Shown piece by piece: positions 22,965-47,872 of a stretch of DNA of 64,000 nucleotides. How positions within the stretch are numbered: position 1 is the stretch's first letter; every line of letters starts with the position of its first letter. The position numbers and the translations under genes are program-made. This DNA is from Pseudomonadota bacterium (GTDB lineage: Bacteria; Pseudomonadota; Alphaproteobacteria; Sphingomonadales; Govanellaceae), in the NCBI GenBank assembly GCA_003577275.1, contig QEVO01000007.1, forward strand, positions 68,840 through 132,839, read 5' to 3'. Below the pieces are notes generated by a model. That model was not told the origin of the DNA. It ran no database searches and saw only the letters and a list, made by a program, of their open reading frames with translations.

Positions 22965-25163
22965 ATGACGTCCGACCGCCATATTATTATTACCTATGCC
23001 TATCGTCCGATGATGCTGGCCTTGCTGACGGCAGCCCCGGTAGCTGCGGCAACGCCCGCCTTGGCCTCGGCGGATGCCGCGGCCGACCCGGCAGTGGGAA
23101 AACTCACAATCGAAGAGGTGATCGTCACCTCGCGCAAAAAAGAGGAGAACCTGCAGAAAACCCCGATCGCGGTCACCGCCCTGACCACCGCCGGTCTGGA
23201 AAATCGCACCATCGCCAATATCACCGATATCGCCAATTTCGTGCCCAACGTGCAGTTCCAGGCCGGACCCGCCGGCGGTTCGGGAGCCAATTTCTTCATT
23301 CGCGGCATCGGCGTCGCCGACTGGATTGCGGCGCTGGAACCGGGCGTCGGCAGCTACATTGACGGCGTCTATCTTGGCCGCACCACCGGCGGCGCTTTCG
23401 ACCTCCTAGACATCGAACGCATCGAGGTGCTGCGCGGCCCGCAAGGGACGTTGTTTGGCCGCAATACCATCGGCGGCGCGGTCAGCGTGATTACGGCAAA
23501 GCCTACGGATGCGCTGGAAGGCGAGATCCAGGGCGTGGCCGGCAGTCGGGAAAAATGGGGAGCCAAGGGCTGGATCAACCTGCCGATGGTGGAGGAGAAA
23601 CTTGCCGCCCGTCTCTTCTTCCGCGCTGAAACCCAGGATGGCTACGGCAAACGACTGTTCGATGACACCACCGCCGGCGATAAGGAAATCTGGTCGGCGC
23701 GCGCCGCTGTGCGCTGGCACGCCAGCGAGGATGTCATTATCGACCTGTCGGGCGACTACTGGAAGCGCGACGGCGGCGCGGATTTTACGCATACCTTGGC
23801 GCTCAATCAGCTGTTTTTCCCTGATACGTCGCAGTATGTGACCAGCGATCGCTACGCCACCTGGTCCGGTCTGCAGGGCGGCAATGACACCGAAATTTGG
23901 GGCATCGGCGCTACCGCCGAATGGCGCGCCGCCGATAATCTGACGCTGAAATCCATTACCGCCTACCGCAAATTGGATCAAAGCACCGGCGTTGATTTTG
24001 ACGGCACGCCCATCGCCCATGTGGACCAATTGGCGATCACCGATCAGCATCAGTTCAGTCAGGAATTCCAGATCAGCGGCGAGAATTTCGACAGCCGCTT
24101 GAACTGGCTTCTCGGCCTTTACTATTTCGAGGAAAAGATTGACCAGTTCATTCCCTTAACCTCTGTCGCCTTCTTTGGCGGCGGCACGCTGCATCAGGAT
24201 AACTACCACGATAATAAAAACGCCGCCGTGTTTGCTCATGCCACCTATGCGCTTACGGACCAACTGAACATGAGCGCCGGACTGCGCTACAGCTATGAAA
24301 AGAAACAGCAGACATTCGATCACTACTTGGATGTAGGCATCATCGTGCCGATTCTTGACAATGAATTTATTGAGGATAGCTGGAAGAAATTGACACCCAA
24401 GGTAGGGCTGGAATATCAGGCAACGGATGACGTGCTACTCTACGTTTCCTATTCGTCCGGCTTCCGCAGCGGTGGTTTTAATGGCCGCCCCATCAATACG
24501 GCATCCATCAGCAGCTATGATCCGGAAATAGCCAATGTGTACGAGGCCGGCGTCAAGTCGCAGCTTTTTGATAACCGTGTGCAGCTGAATTTGGCGGCGT
24601 TCTACAACGACTATAAGGATCTGCAATTGACCTTACCGGAAATGACGCCGTCTGGCCCGGCCATCATTGCGCAAAACGCCGCCAAGGCGCGTATTTACGG
24701 CTTCGAGGCGGAAGGCATGATGCGTCTAACCGAATCGCTCGATATCAACTTCGGCGCCGGTTACCTCAACGCAAAGTACAAGGAAGTGGACCCCAGCGCC
24801 GAATTTACCGTGGATGACCCGCTGATCACCACGCCAAAATGGTCGTTTAACGCCGGCATCCAATACGCCATGCCCCTCAGCAATCTAGGCACGCTGACCA
24901 TGCGGGCGGATTATGCGTATCGCAGCAGCTTCTATTTCTTCAGCATCGGCCCCAACGCGCGCCAAAAAGCGTACGATATCGTCAACCTGAAGGCCAGCTT
25001 CGAACCTGATAATAGCAAGTGGAAGATCGCCGCCTATGGTTTGAATGTATTTGACGAAACCTATGCGCTCTTTGCCCAGGATGCCCTGTCGACCTATGGC
25101 TTGGCGCATGAATGGGTAGCACCGCCCGCCGAGTGGGGCGTCGAGCTGACGTTCAGATTTTAA
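22965..25163 (+). CDS. TonB-dependent receptor (cassette A)
   Basis: 732 aa with a signal peptide. EEVIVTSRKKEENLQKTPIAVTAL and RIEVLRGPQGTLFGRNTIGGAVSV. C-terminal ...WGVELTFRF. Confidence 0.9.
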   Translation: MTSDRHIIITYAYRPMMLALLTAAPVAAATPALASADAAADPAVGKLTIEEVIVTSRKKEENLQKTPIAVTALTTAGLENRTIANITDIANFVPNVQFQAGPAGGSGANFFIRGIGVADWIAALEPGVGSYIDGVYLGRTTGGAFDLLDIERIEVLRGPQGTLFGRNTIGGAVSVITAKPTDALEGEIQGVAGSREKWGAKGWINLPMVEEKLAARLFFRAETQDGYGKRLFDDTTAGDKEIWSARAAVRWHASEDVIIDLSGDYWKRDGGADFTHTLALNQLFFPDTSQYVTSDRYATWSGLQGGNDTEIWGIGATAEWRAADNLTLKSITAYRKLDQSTGVDFDGTPIAHVDQLAITDQHQFSQEFQISGENFDSRLNWLLGLYYFEEKIDQFIPLTSVAFFGGGTLHQDNYHDNKNAAVFAHATYALTDQLNMSAGLRYSYEKKQQTFDHYLDVGIIVPILDNEFIEDSWKKLTPKVGLEYQATDDVLLYVSYSSGFRSGGFNGRPINTASISSYDPEIANVYEAGVKSQLFDNRVQLNLAAFYNDYKDLQLTLPEMTPSGPAIIAQNAAKARIYGFEAEGMMRLTESLDINFGAGYLNAKYKEVDPSAEFTVDDPLITTPKWSFNAGIQYAMPLSNLGTLTMRADYAYRSSFYFFSIGPNARQKAYDIVNLKASFEPDNSKWKIAAYGLNVFDETYALFAQDALSTYGLAHEWVAPPAEWGVELTFRF

Positions 25164-25175
25164 TCTGTGACTTGA

Positions 25176-25219
25176 AGCCCAGGCGGGCAGCGCAATCCCT
25201 GCTCGCATGGGCTATTTTT
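25176..25219 (+). terminator. Imperfect hairpin plus T-tract after the TBDR gene (possible attenuating terminator)
   Basis: AGCCCAGGCGGGCAG-N8-CTGCTCGCATGGGCT has 2 mismatches in the stem and is followed by ATTTTTGG. It lies 13 nt after the TBDR stop and before the Rieske gene SD. Confidence 0.4.
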
Positions 25220-25247
25220 GGACTTCTATATAGCCAGGAGAACTGCG

Positions 25248-26270
25248 ATGACGATGGCAAAGATGCGCTCGGCAAAAATAACCTCTAAGGGCCCTCACTT
25301 AGGCGATCCCATCCCGGCGGAGGGTGAGAACGGCCTTTTTTCGCAAAGCTGGTTTCCGATCTGCCGTTCCTATGACATCAGACCCGGCGAAGTCAAAGGC
25401 TTCGATTTCCTCGACGGTCGGGTGATCGTGTTTCGCGGTGAAAACGGCGTCGCATCGGTCAAAAGCGCCTACTGCCCCCATGTCGGCGCGGATTTGTCGG
25501 TGGGCAAGGTAGTGGGCAACAACATTCGCTGCGCCTTCCATCACTGGGACTATGACCAATCAGGCAAATGCGTGAAAACTGGTATCGGCGATCCGCCGCC
25601 ACCCACCGCCTGCCTGTTCAACTTTCCCACGTTGGAGCGGTTCGGCGTCATCTGGGCCTTCAACGGCGAGGAGCCGCTGTTTGAACTGCCCAGCTTCCGT
25701 CATCCGGATAACGAACTGGAAATCGGCGTCATTGCCGGCGATACCTATAATTGCGATGGCTGGGTGTTCGCCTGCAACACGCCGGATATGCAGCATTTGA
25801 AGGTGGTTCATAAAATCATGCCGCACCACGCTGATCCGCACAAAGATGTGGAATGGGATCCATGGGGCTTCCATTACAATGTCGCCGCCGCTCACGGCCA
25901 GGGGCCGGAAATCGGCTGGCGGCTGGCCATCCGTGGCACCAGCATTTTCCATCAGCAGGGCATGATTGATGACTGGTGGTTCGGCGTTATTGCGGGATTT
26001 TCCTGCCCACGGCCCGGCAAGCATCAGATCTTTCTGGCCTGCGCCACCCATCGCGGCTCCGGCTCCGTCGCCGATGTTGCCTTGGCCAAGGAACGGCTGG
26101 AACGCGGCATGATCATCATTCGGCGCACGGCGGATGAAGACCGCGATATTCTCAATACTATTCATTATCGTCCCGGCACGCTGACCAAGGGTGATACCAC
26201 CTTGGCGAAGTATCTGGACTTCTTGCGAGGATATCCGCGCGCCCATCCCAGCGCCCGGTTCATCGTGTAG
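25248..26270 (+). CDS. Rieske [2Fe-2S] non-heme-iron oxygenase, alpha-only type (cassette A)
   Basis: Rieske motif CPHVGADLS...CAFHHWDY and mononuclear iron motif DMQHLKVVH (D-x2-H-x4-H). I place the start at ATG 25248 (MTMAKMRS...), which has an AGGAG SD 8 nt upstream. The track's 25218 TTG start lies inside the upstream T-tract. Confidence 0.85.
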   Translation: MTMAKMRSAKITSKGPHLGDPIPAEGENGLFSQSWFPICRSYDIRPGEVKGFDFLDGRVIVFRGENGVASVKSAYCPHVGADLSVGKVVGNNIRCAFHHWDYDQSGKCVKTGIGDPPPPTACLFNFPTLERFGVIWAFNGEEPLFELPSFRHPDNELEIGVIAGDTYNCDGWVFACNTPDMQHLKVVHKIMPHHADPHKDVEWDPWGFHYNVAAAHGQGPEIGWRLAIRGTSIFHQQGMIDDWWFGVIAGFSCPRPGKHQIFLACATHRGSGSVADVALAKERLERGMIIIRRTADEDRDILNTIHYRPGTLTKGDTTLAKYLDFLRGYPRAHPSARFIV

Positions 26271-26289
26271 GAACAAGAGGAATATAGTA

Positions 26290-26682
26290 ATGGCCATCAA
26301 AGGAAGCGCCTATCATATTCGCGCTCTGGAGCATCAATTCCACTACTCTCAGGCCGTCAAAAGCAATGGTCGGCTTTATATCTCCGGGACCGTCAGCTGG
26401 GACATGGAGAGCAATCCCCTCCATGCCGGAGACATGCGCGGTCAAGTCAGCGCCGCTTACCAAGAACTGGAGAAAACCTTGCTGGAAAATGGCGCCGATT
26501 TTTCCAACGTCGTCAAGGAAACGGTTTACACCACCAATATAGAGGCCTTGGCCGAGGCCAATGATATCCGCATGAAGTTCTATGAAGGCGTTGACCCTCC
26601 GGCGGCGACATGGGTGGAGGTACGCCGGCTCTTGCACCCGGATTTCCTGGTTGAAATTGAACTCATCGTCGAGCTTGCATAG
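26290..26682 (+). CDS. RidA/YjgF/TdcF-family enamine/imine deaminase (cassette A)
   Basis: 130 aa from ATG 26290 (MAIKGSAY...), with an AAGAGGA SD upstream. YSQAVKSNGRLYISGTVSW, ETVYTTNIE and a C-terminal VEIELIVEL are typical of the RidA family. Confidence 0.85.
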   Translation: MAIKGSAYHIRALEHQFHYSQAVKSNGRLYISGTVSWDMESNPLHAGDMRGQVSAAYQELEKTLLENGADFSNVVKETVYTTNIEALAEANDIRMKFYEGVDPPAATWVEVRRLLHPDFLVEIELIVELA

Positions 26683-26862
26683 AATTGAAAAATGCGCTCG
26701 AATATGGGTCGTCTGATTGGAGCGGGAATCATCAGCGCCAACGCTGACAGGATGATGTTAGGATGATTCTTTACTGATGTTAATGACGCGGCCGATTCTT
26801 TACCGTTGGTAAAGCTTATTTCTCGACATGTCTGGATCGAGTTCGTCTGTCATTGAAGTGGA

Positions 26863-27858
26863 GTGCGGCACGTGACACCGACAAAATCACAGCAGCATTG
26901 GATGTATTCCCGGATGGTATTGAGCCGCGGGTATGAGGAGCGGCTGGCGGCGGCGTATATGGAGGGCAAGACGCCGCTGTTCAATATGGCCAACGGGCCG
27001 CTGCCGGGAGAGATGCATTTGTCGAACGGGCAGGAGCCCTGCGCGGTGGGGGTATGCGCGCATCTGGGGGCGGACGATGTGATCACCGCCACGCACCGGC
27101 CGCATCACATCGCCATCGCCAAGGGCGTCGACTTGCAGGCGATGACGGCGGAGATTTTCGGCAAGAAGGCCGGGTTGTCGGGCGGTCGCGGCGGCCATAT
27201 GCACATCTTTGACCCAAAGGTGAACTTCGCCTGTTCGGGGATCATCGCTCAGGGCATGGGGCCGGCGGCAGGCGCGGCCCTGGCGCGCAAACTGCGCGGC
27301 GAGCCGGGGGTGGCGGTGGCGTTCATCGGCGAAGGCGCCGCCAACCAGGGGGCGTTTCACGAGGTGATGAACATCGCGGCGCTGTGGAAGCTGCCGTTTG
27401 TGTGCGTGATCGAGGACAACGCCTGGGGCGTGTCGGTGGCGAAGAGCCAATCCACCGCGGTGGCCCGCAACGACGTGCGCGCCGCGGCCTACGGCATCCC
27501 CGGCGTCTATGTGCCGGGCAATGACCCTTACGCCATCTATGCGGCCGCCGGCGAGGCGATCGCGCGGGCCAGGGCGGGCGGTGGTCCGACGTTGATCGAG
27601 ATTGAGACCTGGCGGCTGGCGGGCCACTTCATGGGCGACGTGGAAGGCTATCGTCCGGCCGGGGAAAAGGAGGCGCTTTTTGCCCGCGACCCCATCCCCG
27701 CCATGCGTCAGCGGATGATCGCGGAAAAAACCGCGACGGCGGAGGACGTAGTGGCGCTGGAGGCGGAGGCCAAGGCCACTTTGGACGAGGTGTTCAATTT
27801 TGCCCGCGCCGCGGCGGAGCCGCAGCCCGAGGAAGCGTTGGAAAAGGTATTCGTATAA
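26863..27858 (+). CDS. TPP-dependent 2-oxoacid/acetoin dehydrogenase E1 component, alpha subunit (cassette A)
   Basis: 331 aa. E1-alpha motifs GEMHLSNGQEPCAVG, GGRGGHMHIF and IGEGAANQGAFHEVMNIAALWKLPFVCVIEDNAWG (the TPP-binding GDG-like region). GTG 26872 is an alternative start; it fits the GGAG SD and the paralog N-terminus better. Confidence 0.9.
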   Translation: MRHVTPTKSQQHWMYSRMVLSRGYEERLAAAYMEGKTPLFNMANGPLPGEMHLSNGQEPCAVGVCAHLGADDVITATHRPHHIAIAKGVDLQAMTAEIFGKKAGLSGGRGGHMHIFDPKVNFACSGIIAQGMGPAAGAALARKLRGEPGVAVAFIGEGAANQGAFHEVMNIAALWKLPFVCVIEDNAWGVSVAKSQSTAVARNDVRAAAYGIPGVYVPGNDPYAIYAAAGEAIARARAGGGPTLIEIETWRLAGHFMGDVEGYRPAGEKEALFARDPIPAMRQRMIAEKTATAEDVVALEAEAKATLDEVFNFARAAAEPQPEEALEKVFV

Positions 27859-27869
27859 AGGATAGAGCC

Positions 27870-28904
27870 ATGGCGGAACCAGCCAGACGAGACAATCGCC
27901 GCAAACGCAAGCTCACCATCGCCAAGGCCATCAGCGAAGCCATCGCCCAGGAGATGGAACGCGACAGCGGCGTTTTTGTCATGGGCGAGGATATCGCCAA
28001 GCTGGGCGGCGTGTTCGGCAATACCCAGGGACTCCTCGACAAGTTCGGACCGGAGCGAGTGCGCGACACGCCGATTTCCGAGACCGGCTTCATCAGCATG
28101 GCGGTGGGCGCGGCGGCGGTGGGGATGCGCCCCCTGGTGGAGCTGATGTTCGTCGACTTCTTCGGGGTGTGCATGGACGCCATCTATAACCTGGCGGCCA
28201 AGCAGGCCTATTTCTCCGGCGGTCATGTCAAATGCCCGATGGTGCTGATGACCTCGGTGGGCGGCGGCTATTCCGACGCCGGGCAGCACAGTCAATGCCT
28301 TTACGGCACCTTTGCCCATCTGCCGGGCATGAAGGTGGTGATCCCTTCCAACGCCTATGACGCCAAGGGGTTGATGACCGCCGCCATTCGCGACGATAAC
28401 CCGGTCATTTTCATGATGCACAAGAATTTGCAGGGCATGGGCTGGCTGGGCACCGCGCCGGGGGCCATTGTGGACGTGCCCGAAGACGCTTACGAAGTTC
28501 CCCTTGGCAAGGCGGACATCGCCCGGCCGGGCAAGGATATAACCGTCGTCGGGCTCGGCGCTACGGTGCACCAAGCCTTGGATGCCGCCGAGACATTGGC
28601 CAAGGACGGCATCGAGGCGGAGGTCATTGACCTGCGCTCCCTGGTACCGCTGGATCGCGAGGCTGTTCTGAAATCCGTGCGCAAAACCGGCCGCCTCCTG
28701 GTGGTGGATGACGATTATCATAGCTTCGGCGTCTCCGGCGAAATCATCGCCACCGTGGCGGAAGCGGGCATTACCCTCAAATCACCGCCCAAGCGCCTCG
28801 CCTATCCCGATATCCCGATCCCCTTCGCCCGGCCCATGGAGCAGTTCGCCCTGCCCAACGCCGGCAAGGTCGCAACCCTCATCCGCCAGATGTTCCAGGA
28901 GTAG
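27870..28904 (+). CDS. 2-oxoacid/acetoin dehydrogenase E1 component, beta subunit (cassette A)
   Basis: 344 aa. LTIAKAISEAIAQEM, VFVMGEDIAKLGGVFG, RVRDTPISETGF and VPLDREAV form the transketolase-like pyrimidine and C-terminal domains. Confidence 0.9.
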   Translation: MAEPARRDNRRKRKLTIAKAISEAIAQEMERDSGVFVMGEDIAKLGGVFGNTQGLLDKFGPERVRDTPISETGFISMAVGAAAVGMRPLVELMFVDFFGVCMDAIYNLAAKQAYFSGGHVKCPMVLMTSVGGGYSDAGQHSQCLYGTFAHLPGMKVVIPSNAYDAKGLMTAAIRDDNPVIFMMHKNLQGMGWLGTAPGAIVDVPEDAYEVPLGKADIARPGKDITVVGLGATVHQALDAAETLAKDGIEAEVIDLRSLVPLDREAVLKSVRKTGRLLVVDDDYHSFGVSGEIIATVAEAGITLKSPPKRLAYPDIPIPFARPMEQFALPNAGKVATLIRQMFQE

Positions 28905-28906
28905 CC

Positions 28907-29137
28907 ATGACCGACGTTCGCATCGATGAGAGCTTTTGGGAGGGCGATGACCCGGCCGCGCTGACCACTTGGTACTACAGCGACGGCGCCTACGTGGAGG
29001 CCGGCAACGTCATCGCCGAGATCATGCTGCAAAAAACCCAGATGGAAATCGAGGCCCCCGTCTCTGGCACCCTCCATCATAAAACCCAGATCGAGCAGGC
29101 CGTGCGCAAGGGGGATGTCATCGCCGTCATCGATTAG
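28907..29137 (+). CDS. Stand-alone lipoyl/biotinyl-attachment domain protein (76 aa, cassette A)
   Basis: MTDVRIDESFWEG...VEAGNVIAEIMLQKTQMEIEAPVSGTL...GDVIAVID, a single hybrid-motif domain with the candidate modified Lys in MLQKTQ. It starts 2 nt after the E1 beta stop. Confidence 0.75.
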   Translation: MTDVRIDESFWEGDDPAALTTWYYSDGAYVEAGNVIAEIMLQKTQMEIEAPVSGTLHHKTQIEQAVRKGDVIAVID

Positions 29138-29309
29138 TCTTTGTCAACAATAGCTTAAGTTAGATACCAGACCTCCCCCCTCCCTACCCCACCACAATGT
29201 TTCGCCTTGCCCACCCGGTAAAAACAGGCGATCATGACGCCATGGGAGAGGTGCGGCGGATCGCCAACCGGCACGCCCTAGCAGCCCGCTATAAACTGAT
29301 GCCCGGATA

Positions 29310-31904: not shown

Positions 31905-31905
31905 T

Positions 31906-32804: not shown

Positions 32805-32819
32805 AGCTAAACTTACTCC

Positions 32820-33869: not shown

Positions 33870-33881
33870 GATGGCTGTTCC

Positions 33882-34868: not shown

Positions 34869-34893
34869 ATTTTTTCTTCCTTCCCTCTACCCT

Positions 34894-36186
34894 TCAGCGA
34901 TAAACCACATGACTCAAGGCGGGCAGCGCCAGCCGATTGATCAGCAGCGACATCATGCCCGCAAAAGGCACCGATTTGAGCGCCATCGGCGGCACGCGAA
35001 GCCGGGCGCGATCGCCGGTGGCCATCCAATCGGCCATCTCCGTTCCCACCATAGACGCCTGGGCAATGCCGTTTCCTGAATAGCCATAAGCGGCAAAAAG
35101 CCCGGGCGACAACTCTTCGGTCTTGACCAAGGCATCCGACGGCACGCAGATATGGCCATGCCATAGGGATTGCCATCCGACCCTTTCCGGCGCATCAGGA
35201 AAGGCATTACGGAACATCCGCCAAAAGGGGCGCGCCGCGGCCGCCGGCGTAATGCCGTCTCTGAACGCCGGCAGCACCGAGGTCACCAGCCTGCCGTCGC
35301 CGTCAAAGCCGACGCCAAAGGCATCACGGGAGTCTACATCCGCCACCGCCACCCCTTGCGGTAAATAGCGCCGGCCCTGATCCGCAAACGGCTCAGAGGC
35401 GATCATGGCGATTTTGATGTGCAGGAATTTGCTCTGCATCTTGCCGAAAATCGGTGAGAAAGCGTTAGTCGCCAACAACACCTGTTGGGCCTTCACTGTT
35501 CCCATCGGCGCTGTCACGCGCCAGCCATTGCCCGCGGGCGAAAGACCGATAACCGGGCTTTGACCGTGAATGCGCACGCCAGCCCGCACCGCCGCGGCGG
35601 CCAACCCACGGCAGTAATCCAACGGCTGCAGTTGCCCGCCATCGCGGTAGATGATGCCGCCGATATAGCGATCGGTGGCGATATAGCCGCGCATGGCGGC
35701 GGCATCGATGTCATCCACCGGCGCGCCCCATTGCCGCCACGTCGCAGCCGAATTTTGAAGCTTTTTCAGCGTCTCCGGCGTGCGCGCCGCGCACACGACA
35801 CCCACTTGCCGGATGTCGCATTCGATAGCGTGGGTTGTGACAAGCTGGCTGACCAAACGGCCGGCGTCGATCATCATTTGACAGAAACGCCCACCATCCG
35901 CCTCGCCGAAACGCTCTAATGCTTTCTCCGGCGTCATCAGCGTCCAGAACGGCACCCACCAGCCGGTATTGCGGCCGGAAGCGCCGAAACCCGGCTCTTG
36001 CGCTTCAAGCACGATGACGTCACGGCCATGTGAGGCGAACCGCAAGGCTGCCGCCAGGCCGGTGTAGCCAGCGCCAATAATTGCCACATCCGCCGTGGCG
36101 TCAGCGCCAAGCGGCGGGTAGGTTGGAGCCGGGCGCGCCGTCCGCCGCCATAAGTTATCGTGCCAAGGCTCCATCGATTCCGCCAC
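34894..36186 (-). CDS. FAD-dependent oxidoreductase (DAO / amine-oxidase-like family)
   Basis: 430 aa. The N-terminal dinucleotide fold DVAIIGAGYTGLAAALRFASHGRDVIVLE followed by GASGRNTG is typical of the DAO family (PuuB/OrdL-like). Confidence 0.85.
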   Translation of the reverse strand: MAESMEPWHDNLWRRTARPAPTYPPLGADATADVAIIGAGYTGLAAALRFASHGRDVIVLEAQEPGFGASGRNTGWWVPFWTLMTPEKALERFGEADGGRFCQMMIDAGRLVSQLVTTHAIECDIRQVGVVCAARTPETLKKLQNSAATWRQWGAPVDDIDAAAMRGYIATDRYIGGIIYRDGGQLQPLDYCRGLAAAAVRAGVRIHGQSPVIGLSPAGNGWRVTAPMGTVKAQQVLLATNAFSPIFGKMQSKFLHIKIAMIASEPFADQGRRYLPQGVAVADVDSRDAFGVGFDGDGRLVTSVLPAFRDGITPAAAARPFWRMFRNAFPDAPERVGWQSLWHGHICVPSDALVKTEELSPGLFAAYGYSGNGIAQASMVGTEMADWMATGDRARLRVPPMALKSVPFAGMMSLLINRLALPALSHVVYR

Positions 36187-36218
36187 TTCTGCTCCGTATC
36201 ACGATTTGCCGATAAAAC

Positions 36219-36659
36219 TCAGGCGGCGCAGCCGAGGATCTCGGCAACGGCATCGGCGATGCTTTGCTCGGCGGCAGTGTAGAACGTCTGGAATTCGGCG
36301 GCCGTCATGCCGATGGGAACCAGCCGGCTGGAAAAGCATAAGGTCGAGGCGCGAGGTCCCGCCGGCGTTACGCATAGCTGGCCGGTGTAATCGCCGAGCG
36401 GTAAATCGCCGCAGTCGAGTACGCCATAGCGGTACCGCCGCGCCCCTTCGTCATAGCTGAGCAACACCTCGGTGAACGGCGATCCACCGGCAGTTGGCGT
36501 CATGGTGCGCGTGGCACCAATTATCGGCTCGCGGGTCGAAAAAGTTACGGCATTGAAGAAGACCTTCCCAGAAAGTCTCTCAATGCCAGCCCAGTTGACC
36601 AATGACCAAACGTCTGATGCCTTGGCGTTGATGCGAAAACCGGCATGCACTTCGATCAT
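36219..36659 (-). CDS. SRPBCC (START/Bet v1/polyketide cyclase-like) family protein
   Basis: 146 aa. The start MIEVHAGFRINAKASDVWSLVNWAGIERL resembles the Polyketide_cyc2 N-terminus. The call is tentative. Confidence 0.5.
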   Translation of the reverse strand: MIEVHAGFRINAKASDVWSLVNWAGIERLSGKVFFNAVTFSTREPIIGATRTMTPTAGGSPFTEVLLSYDEGARRYRYGVLDCGDLPLGDYTGQLCVTPAGPRASTLCFSSRLVPIGMTAAEFQTFYTAAEQSIADAVAEILGCAA

Positions 36660-36666
36660 CGCGCCC

Positions 36667-37080
36667 TCACCCGCGCACCGGCGGCAGTTCCGCCGTGATT
36701 TCCACCTCCAGCATGAAATCCTCGTTGAACAGGCGGGAAACCTGCACCCAGGTCGCCGCTGGCGGCGCCACCTGATCGTCCTTGAAAAACTTCAGCCGTT
36801 CATCCGCAGCTTCCACTACCGCCGACAGGTTGGTGGTATAAACGGTTTCACGCACCACATGGGCATAGGTCAGCCCGTAATCGCGCAAGATATTCTCAAT
36901 TTCCTTGTAGATGGTGCGAATCTGGGTGCGGGCATCACCCTTGCCGATGCAATTCGCGTTCTCATCGCAGCTGCAAATGCCGGACAGCATTAGAAAAGGT
37001 CCGGATACCACGGCCTGGGAAAACCCCACCGCTTTCTCCAGGGCCGGTCTGTAATGACGAATTTGTTTCGTGACAGCCAT
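36667..37080 (-). CDS. RidA/YjgF-family enamine/imine deaminase (cassette B)
   Basis: 137 aa. FSQAVVSGPFLMLSG, ETVYTTNLS and LEVEITAEL. Confidence 0.8.
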   Translation of the reverse strand: MAVTKQIRHYRPALEKAVGFSQAVVSGPFLMLSGICSCDENANCIGKGDARTQIRTIYKEIENILRDYGLTYAHVVRETVYTTNLSAVVEAADERLKFFKDDQVAPPAATWVQVSRLFNEDFMLEVEITAELPPVRG

Positions 37081-37094
37081 CGTACGTCCTCCTA

Positions 37095-38150
37095 TTAGCG
37101 TAGAAAATCTGCAGCCGGATGGGCCCTTGGGTAATTGCGAATATGATCGAGAAATTTCGCCAGCGGCTTATCGCTTTTGGTCAGCGTGCCTTGACGAAAC
37201 TTGATCAAGGTCAAAATGGAGTAGTCCTGCCACACGAACCGGCGTTCAACGTCTAGGGCATATTCGGATAACTCTTTGGCTTCCTTCAATGCCTTCTCCG
37301 AGCCGTCACCCTTCTTGACCGCCAGCACGAAATAAGGCTCGGTCACGCCCGGCCGCGGCATGCCCATGGGCGCCAGAATGCCGAACCAACGGCCATCGAA
37401 GGTCGAACTTTGGTAGAAGAACGTCGTGCCGTAGATGCCGACGGAATATTTCACAAATTCATTCTTCCAGTGCCGGGCGGTGAATTCGTACGTTACGTCG
37501 TGGGGCCGCCAACGAATTCTTTCGACCCCCGGCAAATCTTCCGGCGAAATATGGTGCAGGGTGATGATATGGTTCTGATCAAGGGTGTTGGCGCATACCA
37601 CCCATGGATCTGTATTCATGGAAAATACCCGCTCGGTGGTGATGATCAGTTCATCGTCCGACAAGCGTTTCCCGGCCACTGGCCCATCCTGATCGTAGAA
37701 ATCCGGCAGCTGCCACAATGGCTCCAGGCCATTGAAGGCAAAGATGATGCCCCAGCGCTCAACGGTCGGAAAGTGGAACAATCCGGTGTTCTTCGGCGCC
37801 GGATCACCGACCCCGGTCTTGCACACAAAGCCATCGCGGCCAAACTCCCAGGCATGAAATGGGCACACCACCCGGTTCTCCGTCACCCACCCCGCCGACA
37901 CGTCCGCACCAACGTGCGGGCAATAGGCGCTCAGCACCTGCGCCACGCCATCCTCGCCACGATAGACCAGCACCTTGCCATCGAGAAAATTCCGCCCGAT
38001 GACCTTGCCCTTCTCCACATCCCCCGACATGCACACTGCATACCAGGATTGGGTGAAAAGGCCGTTGTCGCCTTCCATCGGCATCGGCACCGTATAGCGT
38101 TTCGGCGCCTCCGGCTGCCGTGAGGCTGGAACTATCATCGGTTTTGACAT
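37095..38150 (-). CDS. Rieske [2Fe-2S] non-heme-iron oxygenase (cassette B)
   Basis: 351 aa. CPHVGADVS...CPFHAWEF and iron motif DQNHIITLH. The C-terminus LAKFLDHIRNYPRAHPAADF parallels the cassette A paralog (LAKYLDFLRGYPRAHPSARF). Confidence 0.85.
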   Translation of the reverse strand: MSKPMIVPASRQPEAPKRYTVPMPMEGDNGLFTQSWYAVCMSGDVEKGKVIGRNFLDGKVLVYRGEDGVAQVLSAYCPHVGADVSAGWVTENRVVCPFHAWEFGRDGFVCKTGVGDPAPKNTGLFHFPTVERWGIIFAFNGLEPLWQLPDFYDQDGPVAGKRLSDDELIITTERVFSMNTDPWVVCANTLDQNHIITLHHISPEDLPGVERIRWRPHDVTYEFTARHWKNEFVKYSVGIYGTTFFYQSSTFDGRWFGILAPMGMPRPGVTEPYFVLAVKKGDGSEKALKEAKELSEYALDVERRFVWQDYSILTLIKFRQGTLTKSDKPLAKFLDHIRNYPRAHPAADFLR

Positions 38151-38173
38151 CGGCCTTCTCCCAATCTTGAACG

Positions 38174-40459
38174 TTAGAAATTAACCTGTAACGAAGCGCC
38201 CCATTCGCGTGGGCGGCCAAATTTCGCCGTCGTGACCGCGGTGCCAAAGGGCGCCGTCTCCTCACCGAACATCTTGTACTTCTTGTCCGTCAGGTTCTGG
38301 ACAAAGAAGTGTAATTCCCATCTACCGCTTTCCGGCGCAAGCACGGCGCGGCTGTTGACGATGGAATATCCTTCCTGATGTTCGCTCGGGAAGTTCGGCA
38401 GGAAGAACTCGTGTGCGCTTTTGTAGAAATAGTCGCCGCGCAACGCCAGCGTGCCCCAATTTGACAGCGCAACCGTATACTGGGCGCCCAGCGCCACCGT
38501 CCATTTGGGCGACTGCGGCAACTGGGTGTCCGGCCGGATGGTGATGATGGCGTTAGGATCGACATCGGTGATGTTATTTTCGTTATAGCCGATGCCGATA
38601 AATATATCGAGGTCATCCATAGGCCGCGCATAACCTTCAATTTCCATGCCGTATATCTCGACGGATGCGATATTGCCGGTGGAGATTGCCAAGTTGCGCA
38701 GGGTATTGCCCTGATAATCGGTATAATCGTAGTAATAACCGCTGACATTCAGCCTGACGCGGCGCTCCATCCACTCTGATTTCATGCCCACCTCATAGGC
38801 CCAGATTTTTTCCGGATCAAAGCTTCCCGGTGGGAACGGCGTAAATTCACGGCCATTAAAGCCGCCGCTTCTAAAGCCGCGCGATGCAGATACGTAAACC
38901 ATGGCATCGTCATTGATGTGATATTCCAGACCGAATTTCGGCGACAGGTTGTTCCAGCTATCGCTGGTTTCCGCTTCGGGACGGACGTTGCCGATCGCAA
39001 ACATGCCGAAGGATGACGTGAGTTCCTTCTTTTCATGACTGTAGCGCAAGCCAACAGTGGCGCTGAATTTTTCGGTGATGGCGTAGTTCAACTGACCAAA
39101 TCCCGCATAGCTGGTGGTCTTCTGGTCAAGAACGTTCCGGAAGTCGACGCCGCCGGTAACATCGGGAACAAAGTCATAGGGGCCGGGACCGGTGACAATG
39201 ACCGGCTGGAACAGGATCGCGTGCTGATGCTCAAAAGCATCTTCCTTGAAATAAAAGCCGCCGATGATCCACTTCAGCCTGTCATCCATCGCTTTGCCGG
39301 ATAAATGAATTTCCTGGCTGATCTGGTCCTGATCGTACACGTTATCCTGTTCGACCAGGGGATAGGGCGTGGAGTCAAAGTCATAAGCCATGTGGGCGTT
39401 CAGCGCCCGGTAGGCGGTCAGTGATTTTAGCTGCACGCCGCCGAAATCCTTATTGATTTCCAGAGACGTGCCCCACACTTCGCTGAAATCTTCGTCGGTG
39501 CGTGACGATAGGCCAATGTAGGGATTATCCTGAACCATATTTTCGTCAATGATCGGCAGACCTTGCGCCGCCAGCGCCATGTTGTAGAACACGACGCCGA
39601 TGGAGCCTGGATCATCGAGGTTGACATTGACCAGCGTATCCAGACCCATATTGCCTTTGCGCCGGAACGTATCGGCGCGCAGAATGATGTCGAGTGTTTC
39701 ATCAGGCTGGAAACGGATCTGGCCGCGCACGTAATCGTTGTTGACATTGGCGGCGTCGATGCCGCTGGGCAATAAGGTGCCATAGCCGTCGCGGTTCAAG
39801 GAAGCCGCGGTTATCCGCGCCGATACCTTATCGACGATCGGCAGATTGATGGTGCCTTCCACATCGCGCCTATCATAGCGCCCCACGGTGAAGCGGGCCC
39901 GTCCTGACAACTCATCAGTGGGCTTGGGCGTGATGACCTGAATGGCGCCGCCCAAGGCATTGCGGCCAAACAGCGTGCCTTGCGGCCCGCGCAGAACCTC
40001 GACCCGCTCGATATCGAAGAGATCAAGCGCCGATCCCGCCGTGCGCGCCACGTAGACGCCATCAACATAGATGGGCACGTTGGGCTCCTGGGTGGTGATG
40101 TAATCGAACTGCCCAACGCCGCGCAAAAAGATCTGGGTGCCGGAATTGCCGCCCATGGGCGAGGCGGACATGGCGAGGTTCGGCACATTGAACGGCAGAT
40201 CGGTGATGTTGTAGATGCCGCGCCGCTCCATCTCCTTGGTGGTGATGGCAGCCACGGAAATCGGCACGTCTTGCAGACGCTCTTCAACCCGCTGGGCGGT
40301 AATGAGGACTTCTTCCAGCGCCCCCCGAGCAGGCGCCGGATCGGCCGGGGCGGCGGCCATCGCCGCCGTGGCGCAGAGTACAGTCATAGCCGTCCCGGTC
40401 AAAAGACCACGGCCATACACATCGACAAAACGGGTTGCCGTTTTCATCCGTCCCTCCAT
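38174..40459 (-). CDS. TonB-dependent receptor (cassette B)
   Basis: 761 aa with a signal peptide. LEEVLITAQRVEERLQDVPISVAAI and RVEVLRGPQGTLFGRNALGGAIQV. C-terminal ...WGASLQVNF. The start may be the internal MKTATRF. Confidence 0.9.
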   Translation of the reverse strand: MEGRMKTATRFVDVYGRGLLTGTAMTVLCATAAMAAAPADPAPARGALEEVLITAQRVEERLQDVPISVAAITTKEMERRGIYNITDLPFNVPNLAMSASPMGGNSGTQIFLRGVGQFDYITTQEPNVPIYVDGVYVARTAGSALDLFDIERVEVLRGPQGTLFGRNALGGAIQVITPKPTDELSGRARFTVGRYDRRDVEGTINLPIVDKVSARITAASLNRDGYGTLLPSGIDAANVNNDYVRGQIRFQPDETLDIILRADTFRRKGNMGLDTLVNVNLDDPGSIGVVFYNMALAAQGLPIIDENMVQDNPYIGLSSRTDEDFSEVWGTSLEINKDFGGVQLKSLTAYRALNAHMAYDFDSTPYPLVEQDNVYDQDQISQEIHLSGKAMDDRLKWIIGGFYFKEDAFEHQHAILFQPVIVTGPGPYDFVPDVTGGVDFRNVLDQKTTSYAGFGQLNYAITEKFSATVGLRYSHEKKELTSSFGMFAIGNVRPEAETSDSWNNLSPKFGLEYHINDDAMVYVSASRGFRSGGFNGREFTPFPPGSFDPEKIWAYEVGMKSEWMERRVRLNVSGYYYDYTDYQGNTLRNLAISTGNIASVEIYGMEIEGYARPMDDLDIFIGIGYNENNITDVDPNAIITIRPDTQLPQSPKWTVALGAQYTVALSNWGTLALRGDYFYKSAHEFFLPNFPSEHQEGYSIVNSRAVLAPESGRWELHFFVQNLTDKKYKMFGEETAPFGTAVTTAKFGRPREWGASLQVNF

Positions 40460-41497: not shown

Positions 41498-41512
41498 TAT
41501 CTAAACTCCGTC

Positions 41513-42415: not shown

Positions 42416-42427
42416 TTAATATAACGG

Positions 42428-45293: not shown

Positions 45294-45308
45294 GAAAACG
45301 TCCTGACG

Positions 45309-47829: not shown

Positions 47830-47872
47830 ATACGGGCCTGCTCTATGGTAGGAAGCTCACGAACAGAGCCGG

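What the first reader, a model, noticed from the sequence alone, without database searches (positions are those of the whole stretch)
22965..40459. Two paralogous, convergent cassettes: TBDR - Rieske oxygenase - RidA - E1 alpha/beta - lipoyl protein, bracketed by LAL regulators
Seen, cassette A (+, 22965..29137): TBDR, Rieske oxygenase, RidA, E1 alpha, E1 beta, 76-aa lipoyl protein.
Seen, cassette B (-, 40459..31906): TBDR, Rieske oxygenase, RidA, SRPBCC protein, DAO-family FAD oxidoreductase, E1 alpha, E1 beta, 76-aa lipoyl protein, E2 catalytic domain.
Each shared member aligns end to end by eye. Examples are the Rieske C-termini LAKYLDFLRGYPRAHPSARF / LAKFLDHIRNYPRAHPAADF and the E1 alpha segment PLFNMANGPLPGEMHLS(N/D)GQEPCAVG.
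The cassettes converge on one LAL regulator (29310..31904). A second LAL regulator (19992..22709) is divergent from cassette A.
Inference from the conserved order: this is one functional unit. It would combine TonB-powered uptake, oxygenation or oxidation at an amine-bearing carbon (Rieske, DAO), RidA hydrolysis of the resulting enamine/imine to a 2-oxo compound, and TPP/lipoyl-dependent oxidative cleavage to an acyl-CoA. I do not recognise a described pathway with this composition, and the substrate is unknown.
Basis: partly seen in the sequence, partly recalled or inferred. Interest (0 to 1): 0.75.

Follow-up and report, generated by a model that had tools for sequence, protein, structure and literature searches.

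The report
Twin Rieske–Rid–E1 catabolic cassettes
Two diverged copies of a gene set for importing and oxidatively breaking down an unknown, probably nitrogen-containing nutrient; the same set recurs in many bacteria, including the cultivable Rhizorhabdus wittichii RW1, and I found no description of what it does.

Summary
Every gene is present at the stated coordinates, and the shared members align end to end (38-72% identity).

- Synteny is conserved. The Rieske proteins belong to an uncharacterised clade of alpha3-type monooxygenases, at most 21% identical to any solved structure.
- In 78 genome loci of this clade, a Rid gene is nearby in 36, an E1 gene in 11, a TonB receptor in 28, a LAL regulator in 19 and an SRPBCC gene in 20.
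- Four E1 lineages, at most 40% identical to each other, lie beside the clade in different genomes.
- R. wittichii RW1 carries the cassette-B set except the E2 core, in shuffled order.

Two corrections.
- The 'RidA' proteins lack the catalytic Arg105, so they are Arg-less Rid proteins, a group of unknown function.
- The E1 belongs to a subfamily that elsewhere sits in operons resembling acetoin dehydrogenase operons, with a free lipoyl protein and a separate E2 core. E1 linkage is frequent but not obligatory.

Best model: uptake, then oxidation at or near a C-N carbon, giving a neutral 2-oxo or acyloin product, then TPP/lipoyl cleavage to acyl-CoA. The substrate is unknown. I rate it a new variant of a known kind, of moderate interest.

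The parts
19992..22709 (-). LAL (large ATP-binding LuxR/MalT-like) regulator, divergent from cassette A
   Evidence: GerE 2.8e-14, TPR_MalT 5.5e-12, STAND NTPase. LAL genes flank the Rieske family in 19 of 78 loci.
22825..22832 (-). ACCCCACC motif in the divergent LAL/TBDR_A promoter region. It is part of the inverted repeat ACCCACC-N7-GGTGGGGT.
   Evidence: The 8-mer occurs 8 times in the window against 1.3 expected, and 0 of 100 shuffles reach 8. Four copies lie in the three cassette-associated intergenic regions. A role as an operator is inferred only.
22965..25163 (+). TonB-dependent receptor A
   Evidence: Plug plus barrel. 38% identical to TBDR_B and 37% to TBDR_C, against 24-31% to the other three receptors in the window.
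25248..26270 (+). Rieske non-haem iron monooxygenase A (alpha3 type, uncharacterised clade)
   Evidence: Invariant CxH...CxxH, D180-x2-H183-x4-H188 and D298. AF2 model pLDDT 90. Best folds are SxtT/GxtA, KshA, NdmA and DdmC at 14-21% identity.
26290..26682 (+). Rid-family protein A, lacking Arg105 (motif PAATWV)
   Evidence: PF01042 4.8e-27. TIGR00004 66 bits against a cut-off of 106. Arg105 is replaced by Ala.
26798..26814 (+). Weak hairpin plus T-rich tail in the 180-220 bp gap between Rid A and E1 alpha A. It may mark a boundary between two transcription units.
   Evidence: Terminator-like sites are fewer than in shuffles overall, so this is not significant.
26863..27858 (+). E1 alpha A (TPP-dependent; subfamily signature GEG...EDNAWG). 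The likely start is 26902.
   Evidence: PF00676 2.3e-65. 70-77% identical to E1 alpha of operons resembling acetoin dehydrogenase operons. Signature found in 119 of 120 homologues.
27870..28904 (+). E1 beta A
   Evidence: Transket_pyr 5.4e-43 and Transketolase_C 1.5e-35. NF006667 337.7 bits, above its cut-off of 321.
28907..29137 (+). Free-standing 76-aa lipoyl protein A
   Evidence: PF00364 2.6e-10. A Lys is conserved in AEIMLQKTQMEIEAP.
29186..29193 (+). ACCCCACC motif upstream of the central LAL gene
29310..31904 (+). Central LAL regulator, on which both cassettes converge
   Evidence: GerE 9.4e-17 and STAND NTPase 6.6e-10.
31906..32574 (-). E2 catalytic core only (222 aa), with no lipoyl domain and no subunit-binding domain
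   Evidence: PF00198 7.2e-64. The DHRAIDG motif is present. It overlaps the lipoyl gene by 4 bp. The same split is seen in Marinobacter, Roseibium and L090.
32574..32804 (-). Free-standing 76-aa lipoyl protein B
   Evidence: PF00364 1.5e-11. 60% identical to the RW1 lipoyl protein.
32820..33869 (-). E1 beta B
   Evidence: 72% identical to copy A and to RW1.
33882..34868 (-). E1 alpha B
   Evidence: PF00676 2e-70. 69% identical to RW1.
34894..36186 (-). DAO-family FAD amine oxidoreductase
   Evidence: PF01266 4.1e-58. Nearest NCBIfam model is L-pipecolate oxidase AmaA at 230 bits against a cut-off of 600. Nearest solved structures are all amine-oxidising flavoenzymes at weak scores. Homologues occur in 7 of 78 loci, and in L121, L174 and RW1.
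36219..36659 (-). SRPBCC (Polyketide_cyc2) small protein
   Evidence: PF10604 9.5e-09. Homologues lie next to the Rieske gene in 20 of 78 loci.
36667..37080 (-). Rid-family protein B, lacking Arg105
   Evidence: PF01042 1.3e-18. Arg105 is replaced by Ala and Tyr17 by Phe.
37095..38150 (-). Rieske monooxygenase B
   Evidence: PF00355 1.7e-18. 53% identical to the RW1 protein; 75-92% relatives occur in metagenomes.
38174..40459 (-). TonB-dependent receptor B
   Evidence: 49% identical to the RW1 receptor.
40609..40626 (-). Two direct ACCCCACC copies upstream of TBDR_B
40748..47678 (-). Possible third, related cassette: TBDR_C, M19 dipeptidase, RHO alpha, RHO beta, cyclase (PF04199), SDR. It lies directly upstream of cassette B on the same strand.
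   Evidence: TBDR_C is in the same receptor subfamily as A and B. Receptors 40-42% identical to TBDR_C flank the Rieske family in L015, L040, L056, L077 and L108. Its membership of the unit is not established.

Best explanation
Each cassette is one copy of a widespread but uncharacterised catabolic module. The module acts on a scarce organic substrate that most likely carries an amine next to a hydroxyl or carbonyl carbon: an amino alcohol, an aminoketone, or an opine- or Amadori-like secondary amine.

Proposed steps:
1. The LAL regulators switch on transcription. (Family inference; the ACCCCACC sites are candidate operators.)
2. The TonB-dependent receptor imports the compound. (Family inference.)
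3. The alpha3 Rieske monooxygenase inserts one oxygen atom at or next to the C-N carbon. It is fed by a reductase encoded elsewhere in the genome. In cassette B the DAO flavoenzyme also oxidises an amine to an imine. (The catalytic motifs are shown; the reaction is inferred.)
4. The Arg-less Rid protein, and in B the SRPBCC protein, handle the unstable product. That product would be a neutral imine, enamine or hemiaminal, not a 2-imino acid. (Inferred; this is the weakest step.)
5. The resulting 2-oxo compound, probably an acyloin or alpha-dicarbonyl, is cleaved by the TPP-dependent E1 alpha/beta onto the free lipoyl protein.
6. The single E2 core transfers the acyl group to CoA and probably serves both cassettes. 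The housekeeping E3 re-oxidises lipoate. (Domains and motifs are shown; substrate and sharing are inferred.)

The two cassettes would serve two related substrates.
For: Shown:
- Domains and paralogy.
- The Rieske catalytic residues are invariant.
- The full-length fold is that of alpha3 monooxygenases.
- The E2 core has DHRxxDG, and both lipoyl proteins keep the Lys.

Conserved association, in 78 genome loci of the clade:
- Rid in 36, of which 24 are directly adjacent on the same strand
- E1 in 11
- SRPBCC in 20, TBDR in 28, LAL in 19, DAO in 7

My rough estimates of chance co-location are about 4% for Rid and about 2% for E1.

Further linkage evidence:
- Four E1 lineages (split window type, split Steroidobacter type, two fused types) are at most 40% identical to each other, yet all lie next to the clade.
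- Some fused E1 genes overlap the Rieske start by 4 bp.
- Among 80 Rid-anchored metagenome loci, E1 is present in 3 of the 4 that also have the Rieske gene, but in only 1 of the 76 without it.
- L090 is Rieske-Rid-E1a-E1b-Lip-E2core-LplA. L121 is aminotransferase-Rieske-Rid-E1a-E1b-Lip-DAO.
- RW1 holds TBDR, Rieske, SRPBCC, Rid, LAL, E1a, E1b, Lip and DAO within 13 kb. Every component except Rid and LAL is closer to the B copy than to the A copy.

Hints of a nitrogen-bearing substrate:
- DAO and aminotransferase genes are among the neighbours.
- The nearest relatives of the DAO are all amine oxidases.
- In the Mesorhizobium version the binding protein resembles MotA (mannopine), agropine-binding and GABA-binding proteins.

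Hints of an acyloin-type product:
- E1 alpha homologues at 72% identity sit in operons with AcoR/MimR-like regulators and alcohol dehydrogenases.
- One source names such a homologue acetoin:DCPIP oxidoreductase.
- The Rid proteins lack the carboxylate-binding Arg.
Against: - No substrate or activity has been shown for any member.
- The Rid proteins lack the residue needed for the only proven Rid chemistry. S. enterica Rid7, which also lacks this arginine, showed no imine hydrolase activity.
- The closest Rid homologues in metagenomes mostly sit in unrelated, housekeeping-like contexts.
- E1 is absent from most loci of the clade. It is encoded about 300 kb from the Rieske-Rid operon in one Sphingomonadales genome.
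- Cassette A has a 180-220 bp gap between Rid and E1 alpha.
- The window contains no reductase, ferredoxin, E3, lipoate ligase or inner-membrane transporter for the cassettes.
- Other frequent neighbours of the clade fit hydrophobic or heterocyclic substrates as well: P450, SDR, luciferase-like monooxygenase, DJ-1/PfpI and molybdenum hydroxylases.
- The 'acetoin-like' label for E1 rests on gene context and a source annotation, not on a test.
Confidence: 0.45

Rival explanations
1. The unit is the same, but the substrate has no nitrogen. It would be a hydrophobic aromatic, terpenoid or steroid-like compound. The Rieske enzyme is a hydroxylase or O-demethylase. SRPBCC, DUF4440 and Rid are ligand-binding, isomerase or accessory proteins. 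E1 and the lipoyl protein cleave an acyloin-type side chain.
For: - The nearest folds include KshA (steroid), the guaiacol O-demethylase and DdmC.
- SRPBCC, DUF4440/SnoaL, P450, SDR and luciferase-like monooxygenase genes are frequent neighbours.
- The Rid proteins lack the deaminase arginine.
- The 77%-identical E1 in the Sphingomonadales MAG sits with a ring-hydroxylating dioxygenase, UbiD, a thiolase and an enoyl-CoA hydratase.
- From background knowledge, TBDR plus LAL loci in sphingomonads often serve aromatic catabolism.
Against: - DAO amine oxidases recur with the module, and an aminotransferase lies beside it in L121.
- Where the transporter is an ABC system, its binding protein is of the opine/GABA/polyamine type.
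- SxtT, GxtA and NdmA, which are also among the nearest folds, act on nitrogen-rich substrates.
Confidence: 0.25
2. Oxidation at the alpha-carbon of an amino acid gives a 2-imino acid. A RidA-type deaminase hydrolyses it to a 2-oxo acid. A classical 2-oxoacid dehydrogenase then decarboxylates that oxidatively to acyl-CoA.
For: - DAO plus Rid pairs are a known theme (Niehaus 2015).
- E1 alpha and beta score best against pyruvate dehydrogenase models, and E1 beta passes the NF006667 cut-off.
- The E2 core is catalytically intact.
- M19 dipeptidases nearby could supply unusual amino acids.
Against: - Arg105 is absent from both window Rid proteins and from 36 of 38 Rieske-linked Rid proteins that have a residue at that position.
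- TIGR00004 scores are below the cut-off.
- E1 alpha is below the PDH equivalog cut-offs (276 against 394 bits) and carries a different cofactor-motif signature.
- Cassette A and many other loci have no DAO.
Confidence: 0.12
3. There are two independent modules that merely travel together in catabolic islands: (TBDR-)Rieske-Rid(-SRPBCC) and E1a-E1b-Lip(-E2). They act on unrelated substrates.
For: - Each module occurs alone.
- E1 is near the clade in only 11 of 78 loci.
- Cassette A has an intergenic gap with a weak hairpin between Rid and E1 alpha.
Against: - Four unrelated E1 lineages have each come to lie beside the same Rieske clade.
- Some fused E1 genes overlap the Rieske start by 4 bp.
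- Cassette B, L090 and L121 are tightly packed.
- RW1 keeps the whole B-type set together despite a shuffled order.
- E1 tracks the Rieske gene among Rid-anchored loci: 3 of 4 with it, 1 of 76 without.
Confidence: 0.13
4. The small proteins encoded after the Rieske gene (the Rid trimer, SRPBCC or DUF4440) are structural or substrate-delivery partners of the alpha3 oxygenase. They would take the place that the beta subunit holds in alpha3beta3 oxygenases, and would not be enzymes of a later step.
For: - The slot directly downstream of the Rieske gene is filled in different genomes by a 125-150 aa protein: Rid, SRPBCC or an NTF2-like DUF4440.
- From background knowledge, Rid proteins are trimers, like the alpha3 oxygenase.
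- The Rid proteins lack the catalytic arginine.
Against: - There is no direct evidence of a complex.
- The same Rid subfamily is common away from any Rieske gene.
- Related alpha3 oxygenases (KshA, DdmC, NdmA, SxtT) work without such partners, from background knowledge.
Confidence: 0.08

Closest known systems
Acetoin dehydrogenase enzyme system (AcoA/AcoB/AcoC/AcoL) and 2-oxoacid dehydrogenase complexes
   Same: A heterotetramer-type E1 alpha/beta with TPP domains. A lipoyl-lysine carrier. An E2 acyltransferase core with DHRxxDG. The closest E1 homologues (72%) sit in operons with sigma-54 AcoR/MimR-like activators.
   Different: E2 is split into a 76-aa free lipoyl protein and a 222-aa core, with no subunit-binding domain. 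Cassette A has no E2. The window has no E3. The cofactor motif reads GEG...EDN instead of GDG...ENN. The E1 is embedded in an oxygenase/uptake cassette. Substrate not tested.
Alpha3 Rieske monooxygenases: SxtT/GxtA, KshA, NdmA/NdmB, DdmC, guaiacol O-demethylase
   Same: The same two-domain fold over the full length (TM 0.60-0.73). The same Rieske and 2-His-1-carboxylate motifs and bridging Asp.
   Different: Only 14-21% identity. No Pfam model matches the catalytic domain. This is a separate clade of about 296 clusters at 50% identity, and no member seen here carries a source name more specific than a generic Rieske or ring-hydroxylating oxygenase label.
Amine-catabolic Rieske systems (GbcAB, Stc2, CntAB, NdmABCDE)
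   Same: The idea is the same: a Rieske monooxygenase attacks a carbon next to nitrogen, so that a C-N bond breaks.
   Different: CntA and Stc2-type chains match only the Rieske domain, at E values of 1e-4 to 1e-10. Those pathways use neither Rid nor E1/lipoyl. The window has no adjacent reductase.
RidA / Rid family (YjgF/YER057c/UK114), and pairs of FAD amine oxidase with Rid (e.g. DadA-DadY, DauA)
   Same: The PF01042 fold. Glu120 is conserved, and Tyr17 is kept or replaced by Phe. In cassette B the Rid gene lies two genes from a DAO gene.
   Different: Arg105 is replaced by Ala, Ser or Thr. Scores are below the TIGR00004 cut-off. [quoted passage not shown] Here the main partner is a Rieske oxygenase, a link that paper does not mention ('Rieske' occurs 0 times in it).
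Sphingomonad-type catabolic loci with a TonB-dependent receptor and a LuxR/MalT-type regulator
   Same: An outer-membrane receptor gene heads a catabolic operon, next to a large ATP-binding LuxR regulator.
   Different: The enzyme content is new. The same enzyme core is coupled in other genomes to ABC or MFS transporters and to IclR or TetR regulators.

Membership tests
Rieske non-haem iron oxygenase (alpha3 monooxygenase type) | Rieske [2Fe-2S] ligands CxH...CxxH | tested here: met
   C76, H78, C95 and H98 are invariant in 27 sequences. PF00355 2.9e-18 and 1.7e-18.
Rieske non-haem iron oxygenase (alpha3 monooxygenase type) | Mononuclear iron 2-His-1-carboxylate site and bridging Asp (D-x2-H-x4-H ... 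D) | tested here: met
   D180, H183, H188 and D298 are invariant. NTPDMQHLKVVH in A and NTLDQNHIITLH in B.
Rieske non-haem iron oxygenase (alpha3 monooxygenase type) | Two-domain fold of the oxygenase alpha subunit | tested here: met
   AF2 pLDDT 90.4 and pTM 0.88. Foldseek E 1e-15 to 1e-19 against SxtT/GxtA, KshA, NdmA and DdmC over about 320-340 columns.
Rieske non-haem iron oxygenase (alpha3 monooxygenase type) | Dedicated reductase or ferredoxin partner | tested here: not met
   tblastn with partners from homologous loci finds none in the 64-kb window. Partners are present beside homologues in L079 and L088. They must be encoded elsewhere in this genome.
   No Pfam catalytic-domain hit. 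PDB sequence matches are confined to the Rieske domain. Fold matches are at most 21% identical. No formal phylogeny with those clades was built.
RidA subfamily (enamine/imine deaminase) | Catalytic Arg105 (E. coli numbering), which binds the substrate alpha-carboxylate | tested here: not met
   Ala in both window proteins. In the alignment of Rieske-linked Rid proteins the column reads Ser 20, Ala 11, Thr 5, Arg 2, one of the Arg being the E. coli reference. 80 metagenome homologues: Ala 64, Ser 16. Requirement from Niehaus 2015.
RidA subfamily (enamine/imine deaminase) | Curated family score (TIGR00004) | tested here: not met
   66.2 and 47.0 bits against a cut-off of 106.25.
Rid superfamily (PF01042) | Domain match and conserved Glu120 | tested here: met
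   PF01042 4.8e-27 and 1.3e-18. Glu120 is conserved in 41 of 41 sequences.
2-oxoacid / acetoin dehydrogenase complex | E1 alpha and beta subunits with TPP and transketolase-type domains | tested here: met
   PF00676, PF02779 and PF02780 at 1e-35 to 1e-70. E1 beta passes NF006667.
2-oxoacid / acetoin dehydrogenase complex | Canonical TPP/Mg motif GDG...NN | tested here: inconclusive
   It reads GEG...EDN(A/S)WG in both copies and in 119 of 120 homologues. This is a conserved variant, so the enzymes are probably functional, but that is untested.
2-oxoacid / acetoin dehydrogenase complex | Lipoyl-lysine domain | tested here: met
   PF00364 in both 76-aa proteins. The Lys is conserved across five homologues.
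2-oxoacid / acetoin dehydrogenase complex | Multidomain E2 (lipoyl, subunit-binding and catalytic domains) and an E3 | tested here: not met
   E2 is split into a free lipoyl protein and a 222-aa core with DHRAIDG and no subunit-binding domain. Cassette A has no E2. No E3 was found in the annotated window.
Acetoin dehydrogenase (Aco) specifically | Cleavage of acetoin or another acyloin | not testable with these tools
   The only support is context. Homologues at 72% identity lie in operons with AcoR/MimR-like sigma-54 regulators and alcohol dehydrogenases, and one source names its protein acetoin:DCPIP oxidoreductase.
L-pipecolate oxidase AmaA (nearest named DAO family) | Curated family score | tested here: not met
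   229.7 bits against a cut-off of 600. The protein is a DAO-family member only (PF01266 4.1e-58).
LAL regulators (MalT-like large ATP-binding LuxR) | N-terminal STAND NTPase, a TPR or sensor region, and a C-terminal GerE helix-turn-helix | tested here: met
   for both proteins (864 and 905 aa).
TonB-dependent receptor | Plug domain plus 22-strand barrel domain | tested here: met
   PF07715 and PF00593 in both. The TonB box was not examined.

The most novel reading that the evidence does not exclude
A new clade of Rieske monooxygenases and arginine-less Rid proteins work as a dedicated pair. The pair carries out oxygen-dependent C-N cleavage of amino-alcohol-, opine- or Amadori-like compounds. 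The carbon skeleton is then cut by an acyloin-cleaving E1 that loads a free lipoyl carrier. This would be a previously undescribed oxygenolytic route for amine catabolism. It would also give the first physiological function to an arginine-less Rid protein.
Probability: 0.15. Interest if true: 0.8.

Novelty: new variant of a known kind. Interest (0 to 1): 0.55.

Why it matters
Every part belongs to a known protein family. The combination is what appears undescribed: an uncharacterised Rieske clade, an arginine-less Rid protein, an E1 with a free lipoyl protein and a split E2, and often a DAO and an SRPBCC protein. I found no description of it in four full-text searches.

The combination is nevertheless conserved. 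It occurs in Alpha-, Beta- and Gammaproteobacteria and in some other phyla, with interchangeable transporters and regulators.

It offers a concrete, testable genetic context for two open questions:
- What do Rid proteins lacking the catalytic arginine do? They were called 'mysterious' in 2015.
- What are stand-alone lipoyl proteins and core-only E2 proteins for?

Because R. wittichii RW1, a cultivable strain, carries the set, the pathway and its substrate could be found by ordinary genetics and substrate screening. The substrate may be an unrecognised class of environmental carbon and nitrogen source taken up through TonB-dependent receptors.

Tried and rejected
1. Four full-text literature searches found no paper describing the module. 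They combined Rieske with RidA, YjgF, L-PSP, E1, acetoin dehydrogenase, TonB, and opine/Amadori terms.
2. I looked for expression data on the RW1 locus. I could not map the locus to Swit_ tags, and the papers and supplements found say nothing about it.
3. Reverse synteny test from the Rid side. The first alignment was too diverse for the scan. The second showed that the closest Rid homologues are mostly in unrelated contexts such as glutamate-cysteine ligase and DUF885. Rid is therefore not an exclusive partner of the Rieske clade.
4. The promoter and terminator scan of 22.5-41 kb gave fewer sites than shuffled sequence. It says nothing about operon structure.
5. The ACCCCACC motif is not conserved upstream of related loci in other genomes. 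It remains a within-genome lead only.
6. I rejected a recent tandem or inverted duplication. DNA similarity is limited to the E1 region at 69%, and each copy has closer relatives elsewhere.
7. I rejected a frameshifted E2 pseudogene. The lipoyl/core split with a 4-bp overlap is conserved in Marinobacter and Roseibium.
8. I considered E1/lipoyl as the electron donor for the Rieske enzyme, because the window has no reductase. I judged this unlikely, because homologous loci carry ordinary reductases and ferredoxins.
9. My first ORF-based gene calling in GC-rich loci produced shadow ORFs. I relied instead on homology hits and on precomputed gene calls.

Full report
**Observation**

- Cassette A runs on the + strand: TonB-dependent receptor (22965-25163), Rieske protein (to 26270), Rid-family protein (to 26682), E1 alpha (to 27858), E1 beta (27870-28904), and a 76-aa lipoyl protein (28907-29137).
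- Cassette B runs on the - strand from 40459 to 31906: receptor, Rieske, Rid, SRPBCC, DAO flavoenzyme, E1 alpha, E1 beta, 76-aa lipoyl protein, and a 222-aa E2 catalytic core.
- One large LuxR-type (LAL) regulator lies between the cassettes (29310-31904). Another is divergent from cassette A (19992-22709).

All shared members align over their full length: receptor 38%, Rieske 44%, Rid 45%, E1 alpha 64%, E1 beta 72%, lipoyl 43%.

Independent gene calls on identical metagenome contigs shift three starts: Rieske A to 25248, Rid A to 26290, E1 alpha A to 26902.

The copies are old. DNA similarity is confined to the E1 genes, at 69%. Each copy has closer relatives in other genomes than its partner in the window.

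**The Rieske proteins**

They carry the Rieske ligands and the D-x2-H-x4-H...D iron site, all invariant in an alignment of 27 homologues. An AlphaFold model (pLDDT 90) matches full-length alpha3 monooxygenases: SxtT/GxtA, KshA, a guaiacol O-demethylase, NdmA and DdmC. Identity to these is only 14-21%.

By sequence, solved structures match only the Rieske domain. No Pfam model recognises the catalytic domain.

The family is of moderate size: more than 1000 database proteins at E<=1e-10, and 296 clusters at 50% identity at E<=1e-30. Sources name it only generically.

I did not build a formal tree with the named clades.

**Synteny**

A scan of one genome per species returned 78 loci of the family. 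Homology mapping of the window proteins onto them gave these counts:

| Neighbour | Loci (of 78) |
|---|---|
| Rid gene | 36 (24 directly adjacent, same strand) |
| TonB receptor | 28 |
| SRPBCC | 20 |
| LAL regulator | 19 |
| E1 | 11 |
| DAO | 7 |

Many contigs are short, so these are lower bounds. My rough expectations by chance are about 4% for Rid and about 2% for E1.

A distance tree shows that the context-rich loci form the part of the family that holds Rieske A. Clades from Binatia and Polyangium lack this context.

Precomputed gene calls show the same enzyme core coupled to different transporters and regulators:

- Mesorhizobium: fused E1-Rieske-Rid-ABC transporter-Rieske-IclR, with a divergent ferredoxin reductase. 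The E1 gene overlaps the Rieske gene by 4 bp.
- Parasphingopyxis: Lip-fused E1-Rid, then TetR, then TBDR-SRPBCC-Rieske-SRPBCC-DAO.
- Hyphococcus: fused E1, then Rid-MFS-Rieske-IclR.

**The E1 link**

The E1 genes next to the family belong to four lineages, no more than 40% identical to each other:

- the window type (split)
- a split Steroidobacter type
- two fused alpha-beta types

Repeated recruitment of different E1 enzymes to the same oxygenase clade is the strongest argument for a functional link.

Searching metagenomes from the Rid side gave two contigs that repeat the window cassette:

- L090: LAL, then Rieske-Rid-E1a-E1b-Lip-E2core-LplA
- L121: LAL-aminotransferase-Rieske-Rid-E1a-E1b-Lip-DAO

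In that set, E1 occurred in 3 of the 4 loci that had the Rieske gene and in 1 of the 76 that did not.

Rhizorhabdus wittichii RW1 carries the following within about 13 kb: Rid, TBDR, Rieske, SRPBCC, LAL, an acyl-CoA-synthetase-like gene, E1a, E1b, a 78-aa lipoyl protein, and DAO. Identities to the cassette-B proteins are receptor 49%, Rieske 53%, E1a 69%, E1b 72%, Lip 60% and DAO 44%. Every component except Rid and LAL is closer to the B copy than to the A copy.

The link is not obligatory. A Sphingomonadales genome has LAL-TBDR-Rieske-Rid-SRPBCC-DUF4440 at one site and TBDR-E1a-E1b-Lip about 300 kb away.

**First correction: the 'RidA' proteins**

I aligned them to E. coli RidA. Both window proteins have Ala in place of Arg105. 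The same position reads Ser, Ala or Thr in 36 of the 38 Rieske-linked Rid proteins that have a residue there. It reads Ala or Ser in 80 of 83 members of the wider PAATWV subfamily. Both window proteins score below the NCBIfam Rid cut-off.

Niehaus et al. 2015 report that this arginine is essential for imine hydrolysis. They found no such activity in an arginine-less Rid protein (S. enterica Rid7), and state that the functions of arginine-less Rid subfamilies are unknown.

The step 'RidA hydrolyses the imine to a 2-oxo acid' is therefore not supported as written. If these proteins do act on an imine or enamine, it is probably one without an alpha-carboxylate.

This Rid subfamily is also common in unrelated contexts. 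It is not an exclusive partner of the oxygenase.

**Second correction: the E1**

E1 alpha is 70-77% identical to proteins of many marine Alpha- and Gammaproteobacteria. In Marinobacter and Roseibium these sit in E1a-E1b-Lip(77 aa)-E2core(226 aa)-lipoate ligase operons, next to sigma-54 AcoR/MimR-like activators and alcohol dehydrogenases. One source calls its protein acetoin:DCPIP oxidoreductase.

The subfamily has its own cofactor-motif signature, GEG...EDN(A/S)WG, in 119 of 120 members. E1 alpha is below the PDH equivalog cut-offs; E1 beta passes a subfamily model.

The split of E2 into a free lipoyl protein and a core with an intact DHRxxDG motif is conserved, with overlapping genes. It is therefore not a pseudogene.

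Cassette A has no E2, and the window has no E3 or lipoate ligase. The single E2 core probably serves both cassettes, and housekeeping enzymes would supply the rest. This last point is inference.

**Mechanism**

I favour one pathway unit per cassette:

1. TonB-powered uptake.
2. Rieske monooxygenation, plus DAO oxidation in cassette B, at or next to a C-N carbon.
3. Handling of the unstable product by Rid and SRPBCC.
4. TPP-dependent cleavage of the resulting 2-oxo compound onto the lipoyl carrier.
5. Transfer of the acyl group to CoA.

Evidence for a nitrogen-bearing substrate is indirect:
- DAO and aminotransferase genes are neighbours.
- The nearest relatives of the DAO are all amine oxidases.
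- In the Mesorhizobium version the binding protein resembles MotA (mannopine), agropine-binding and GABA-binding proteins.

An amine next to a hydroxyl or carbonyl carbon would give an acyloin or alpha-dicarbonyl after deamination. That would fit both an E1 resembling acetoin dehydrogenase and a Rid protein without a carboxylate anchor. This is inference, and I give the whole model 0.45.

The rivals are:
- a nitrogen-free hydrophobic substrate (0.25)
- two modules that merely travel together (0.13)
- small proteins acting as oxygenase partner subunits (0.08)

**Regulation and gaps**

The 8-mer ACCCCACC occurs 8 times in the window against 1.3 expected. Four copies lie in the promoter regions of receptor A, the central LAL gene and receptor B. 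It is not conserved in other genomes. It is a candidate operator only.

The generic promoter and terminator scan was uninformative. No reductase or ferredoxin for the three Rieske oxygenases of the window is encoded in the 64 kb.

**Verdict**

The finding is real, and the conserved-unit idea survives its own refutation tests. Two labels need correcting, the E1 link is facultative, and the substrate remains unknown.

All parts are known families in an arrangement for which I found no description. I class it as a new variant of a known kind, with interest 0.55. Its main value is a tractable context for arginine-less Rid proteins and free lipoyl/E2-core systems, now testable in R. wittichii RW1.

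Noticed in passing
window 40748-47678 (-): Directly upstream of cassette B, on the same strand, lies TBDR-M19 dipeptidase-ring-hydroxylating dioxygenase alpha-beta-cyclase (PF04199)-SDR. Its receptor belongs to the same subfamily as receptors A and B (37-38% identity). Receptors 40-42% identical to it flank the Rieske family in five other loci. It may be a third related cassette.
   Followed up: partly
window 44208-62396 (-): There are five M19 'membrane dipeptidase' paralogues, three of them 77-81% identical to each other. With them are two LuxR solos carrying autoinducer-binding domains (65% identical), an AMP-binding enzyme, an MFS transporter, another TonB receptor and an arginase-family gene. 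This looks like a large uptake and amide-hydrolysis island.
   Followed up: partly
window 22825-22832, 29186-29193, 40609-40626: The 8-mer ACCCCACC is enriched: 8 copies against 1.3 expected. Four copies are in the promoter regions of receptor A, the central LAL gene and receptor B. Upstream of receptor A it forms an inverted repeat. It is not conserved in related loci of other genomes.
   Followed up: partly
window 26863-27858 and 33882-34868; proteins P0121-P0240: This E1 alpha subfamily replaces the canonical TPP/Mg motif GDG...ENN with GEG...EDN(A/S)WG in 119 of 120 homologues. The consequence for cofactor binding or substrate choice is unknown.
   Followed up: partly
L079 11493-12545 (Mesorhizobium MAG): The ABC binding protein inside the E1-Rieske-Rid operon matches the mannopine-binding protein MotA (184 bits). 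It also matches agropine-, mannopine- and GABA-binding proteins. This is a lead to the substrate class.
   Followed up: partly
L061, L068-L073, L090: Genes of xanthine-dehydrogenase-type molybdenum hydroxylases (MoCo-binding and FAD-binding subunits, XdhC) and of DJ-1/PfpI proteins recur beside the Rieske family: 12 and 13 of 78 loci respectively. This hints at N-heterocyclic substrates in some lineages.
   Followed up: no
L088 11054-11446, L173 11906-12367, L175 6591-7139: In several genomes a small NTF2-like (DUF4440/SnoaL) protein follows or accompanies the Rieske gene. In alpha3beta3 oxygenases that position holds the beta subunit.
   Followed up: no
window 6196-17637: A respiratory and denitrification block: a fused cytochrome b/4Fe-4S/FlpD-like protein, SCO1, a UbiA-family prenyltransferase, a haem-copper oxidase subunit I-like protein, cytochrome cd1 nitrite reductase (nirS), a NosR/NirI-like protein and ApbE.
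   Followed up: no
window 2481-5137 (-): An adjacent pair: a DUF917 (S-Me-THD-like) protein and a hydantoinase/oxoprolinase A-type protein. They lie next to another TonB receptor (348-2450).
   Followed up: no
window 48632-49540 (-), 11273-11818 (-), 5706-6218 (-): Three ORFs of 170-302 aa with no Pfam match.
   Followed up: no
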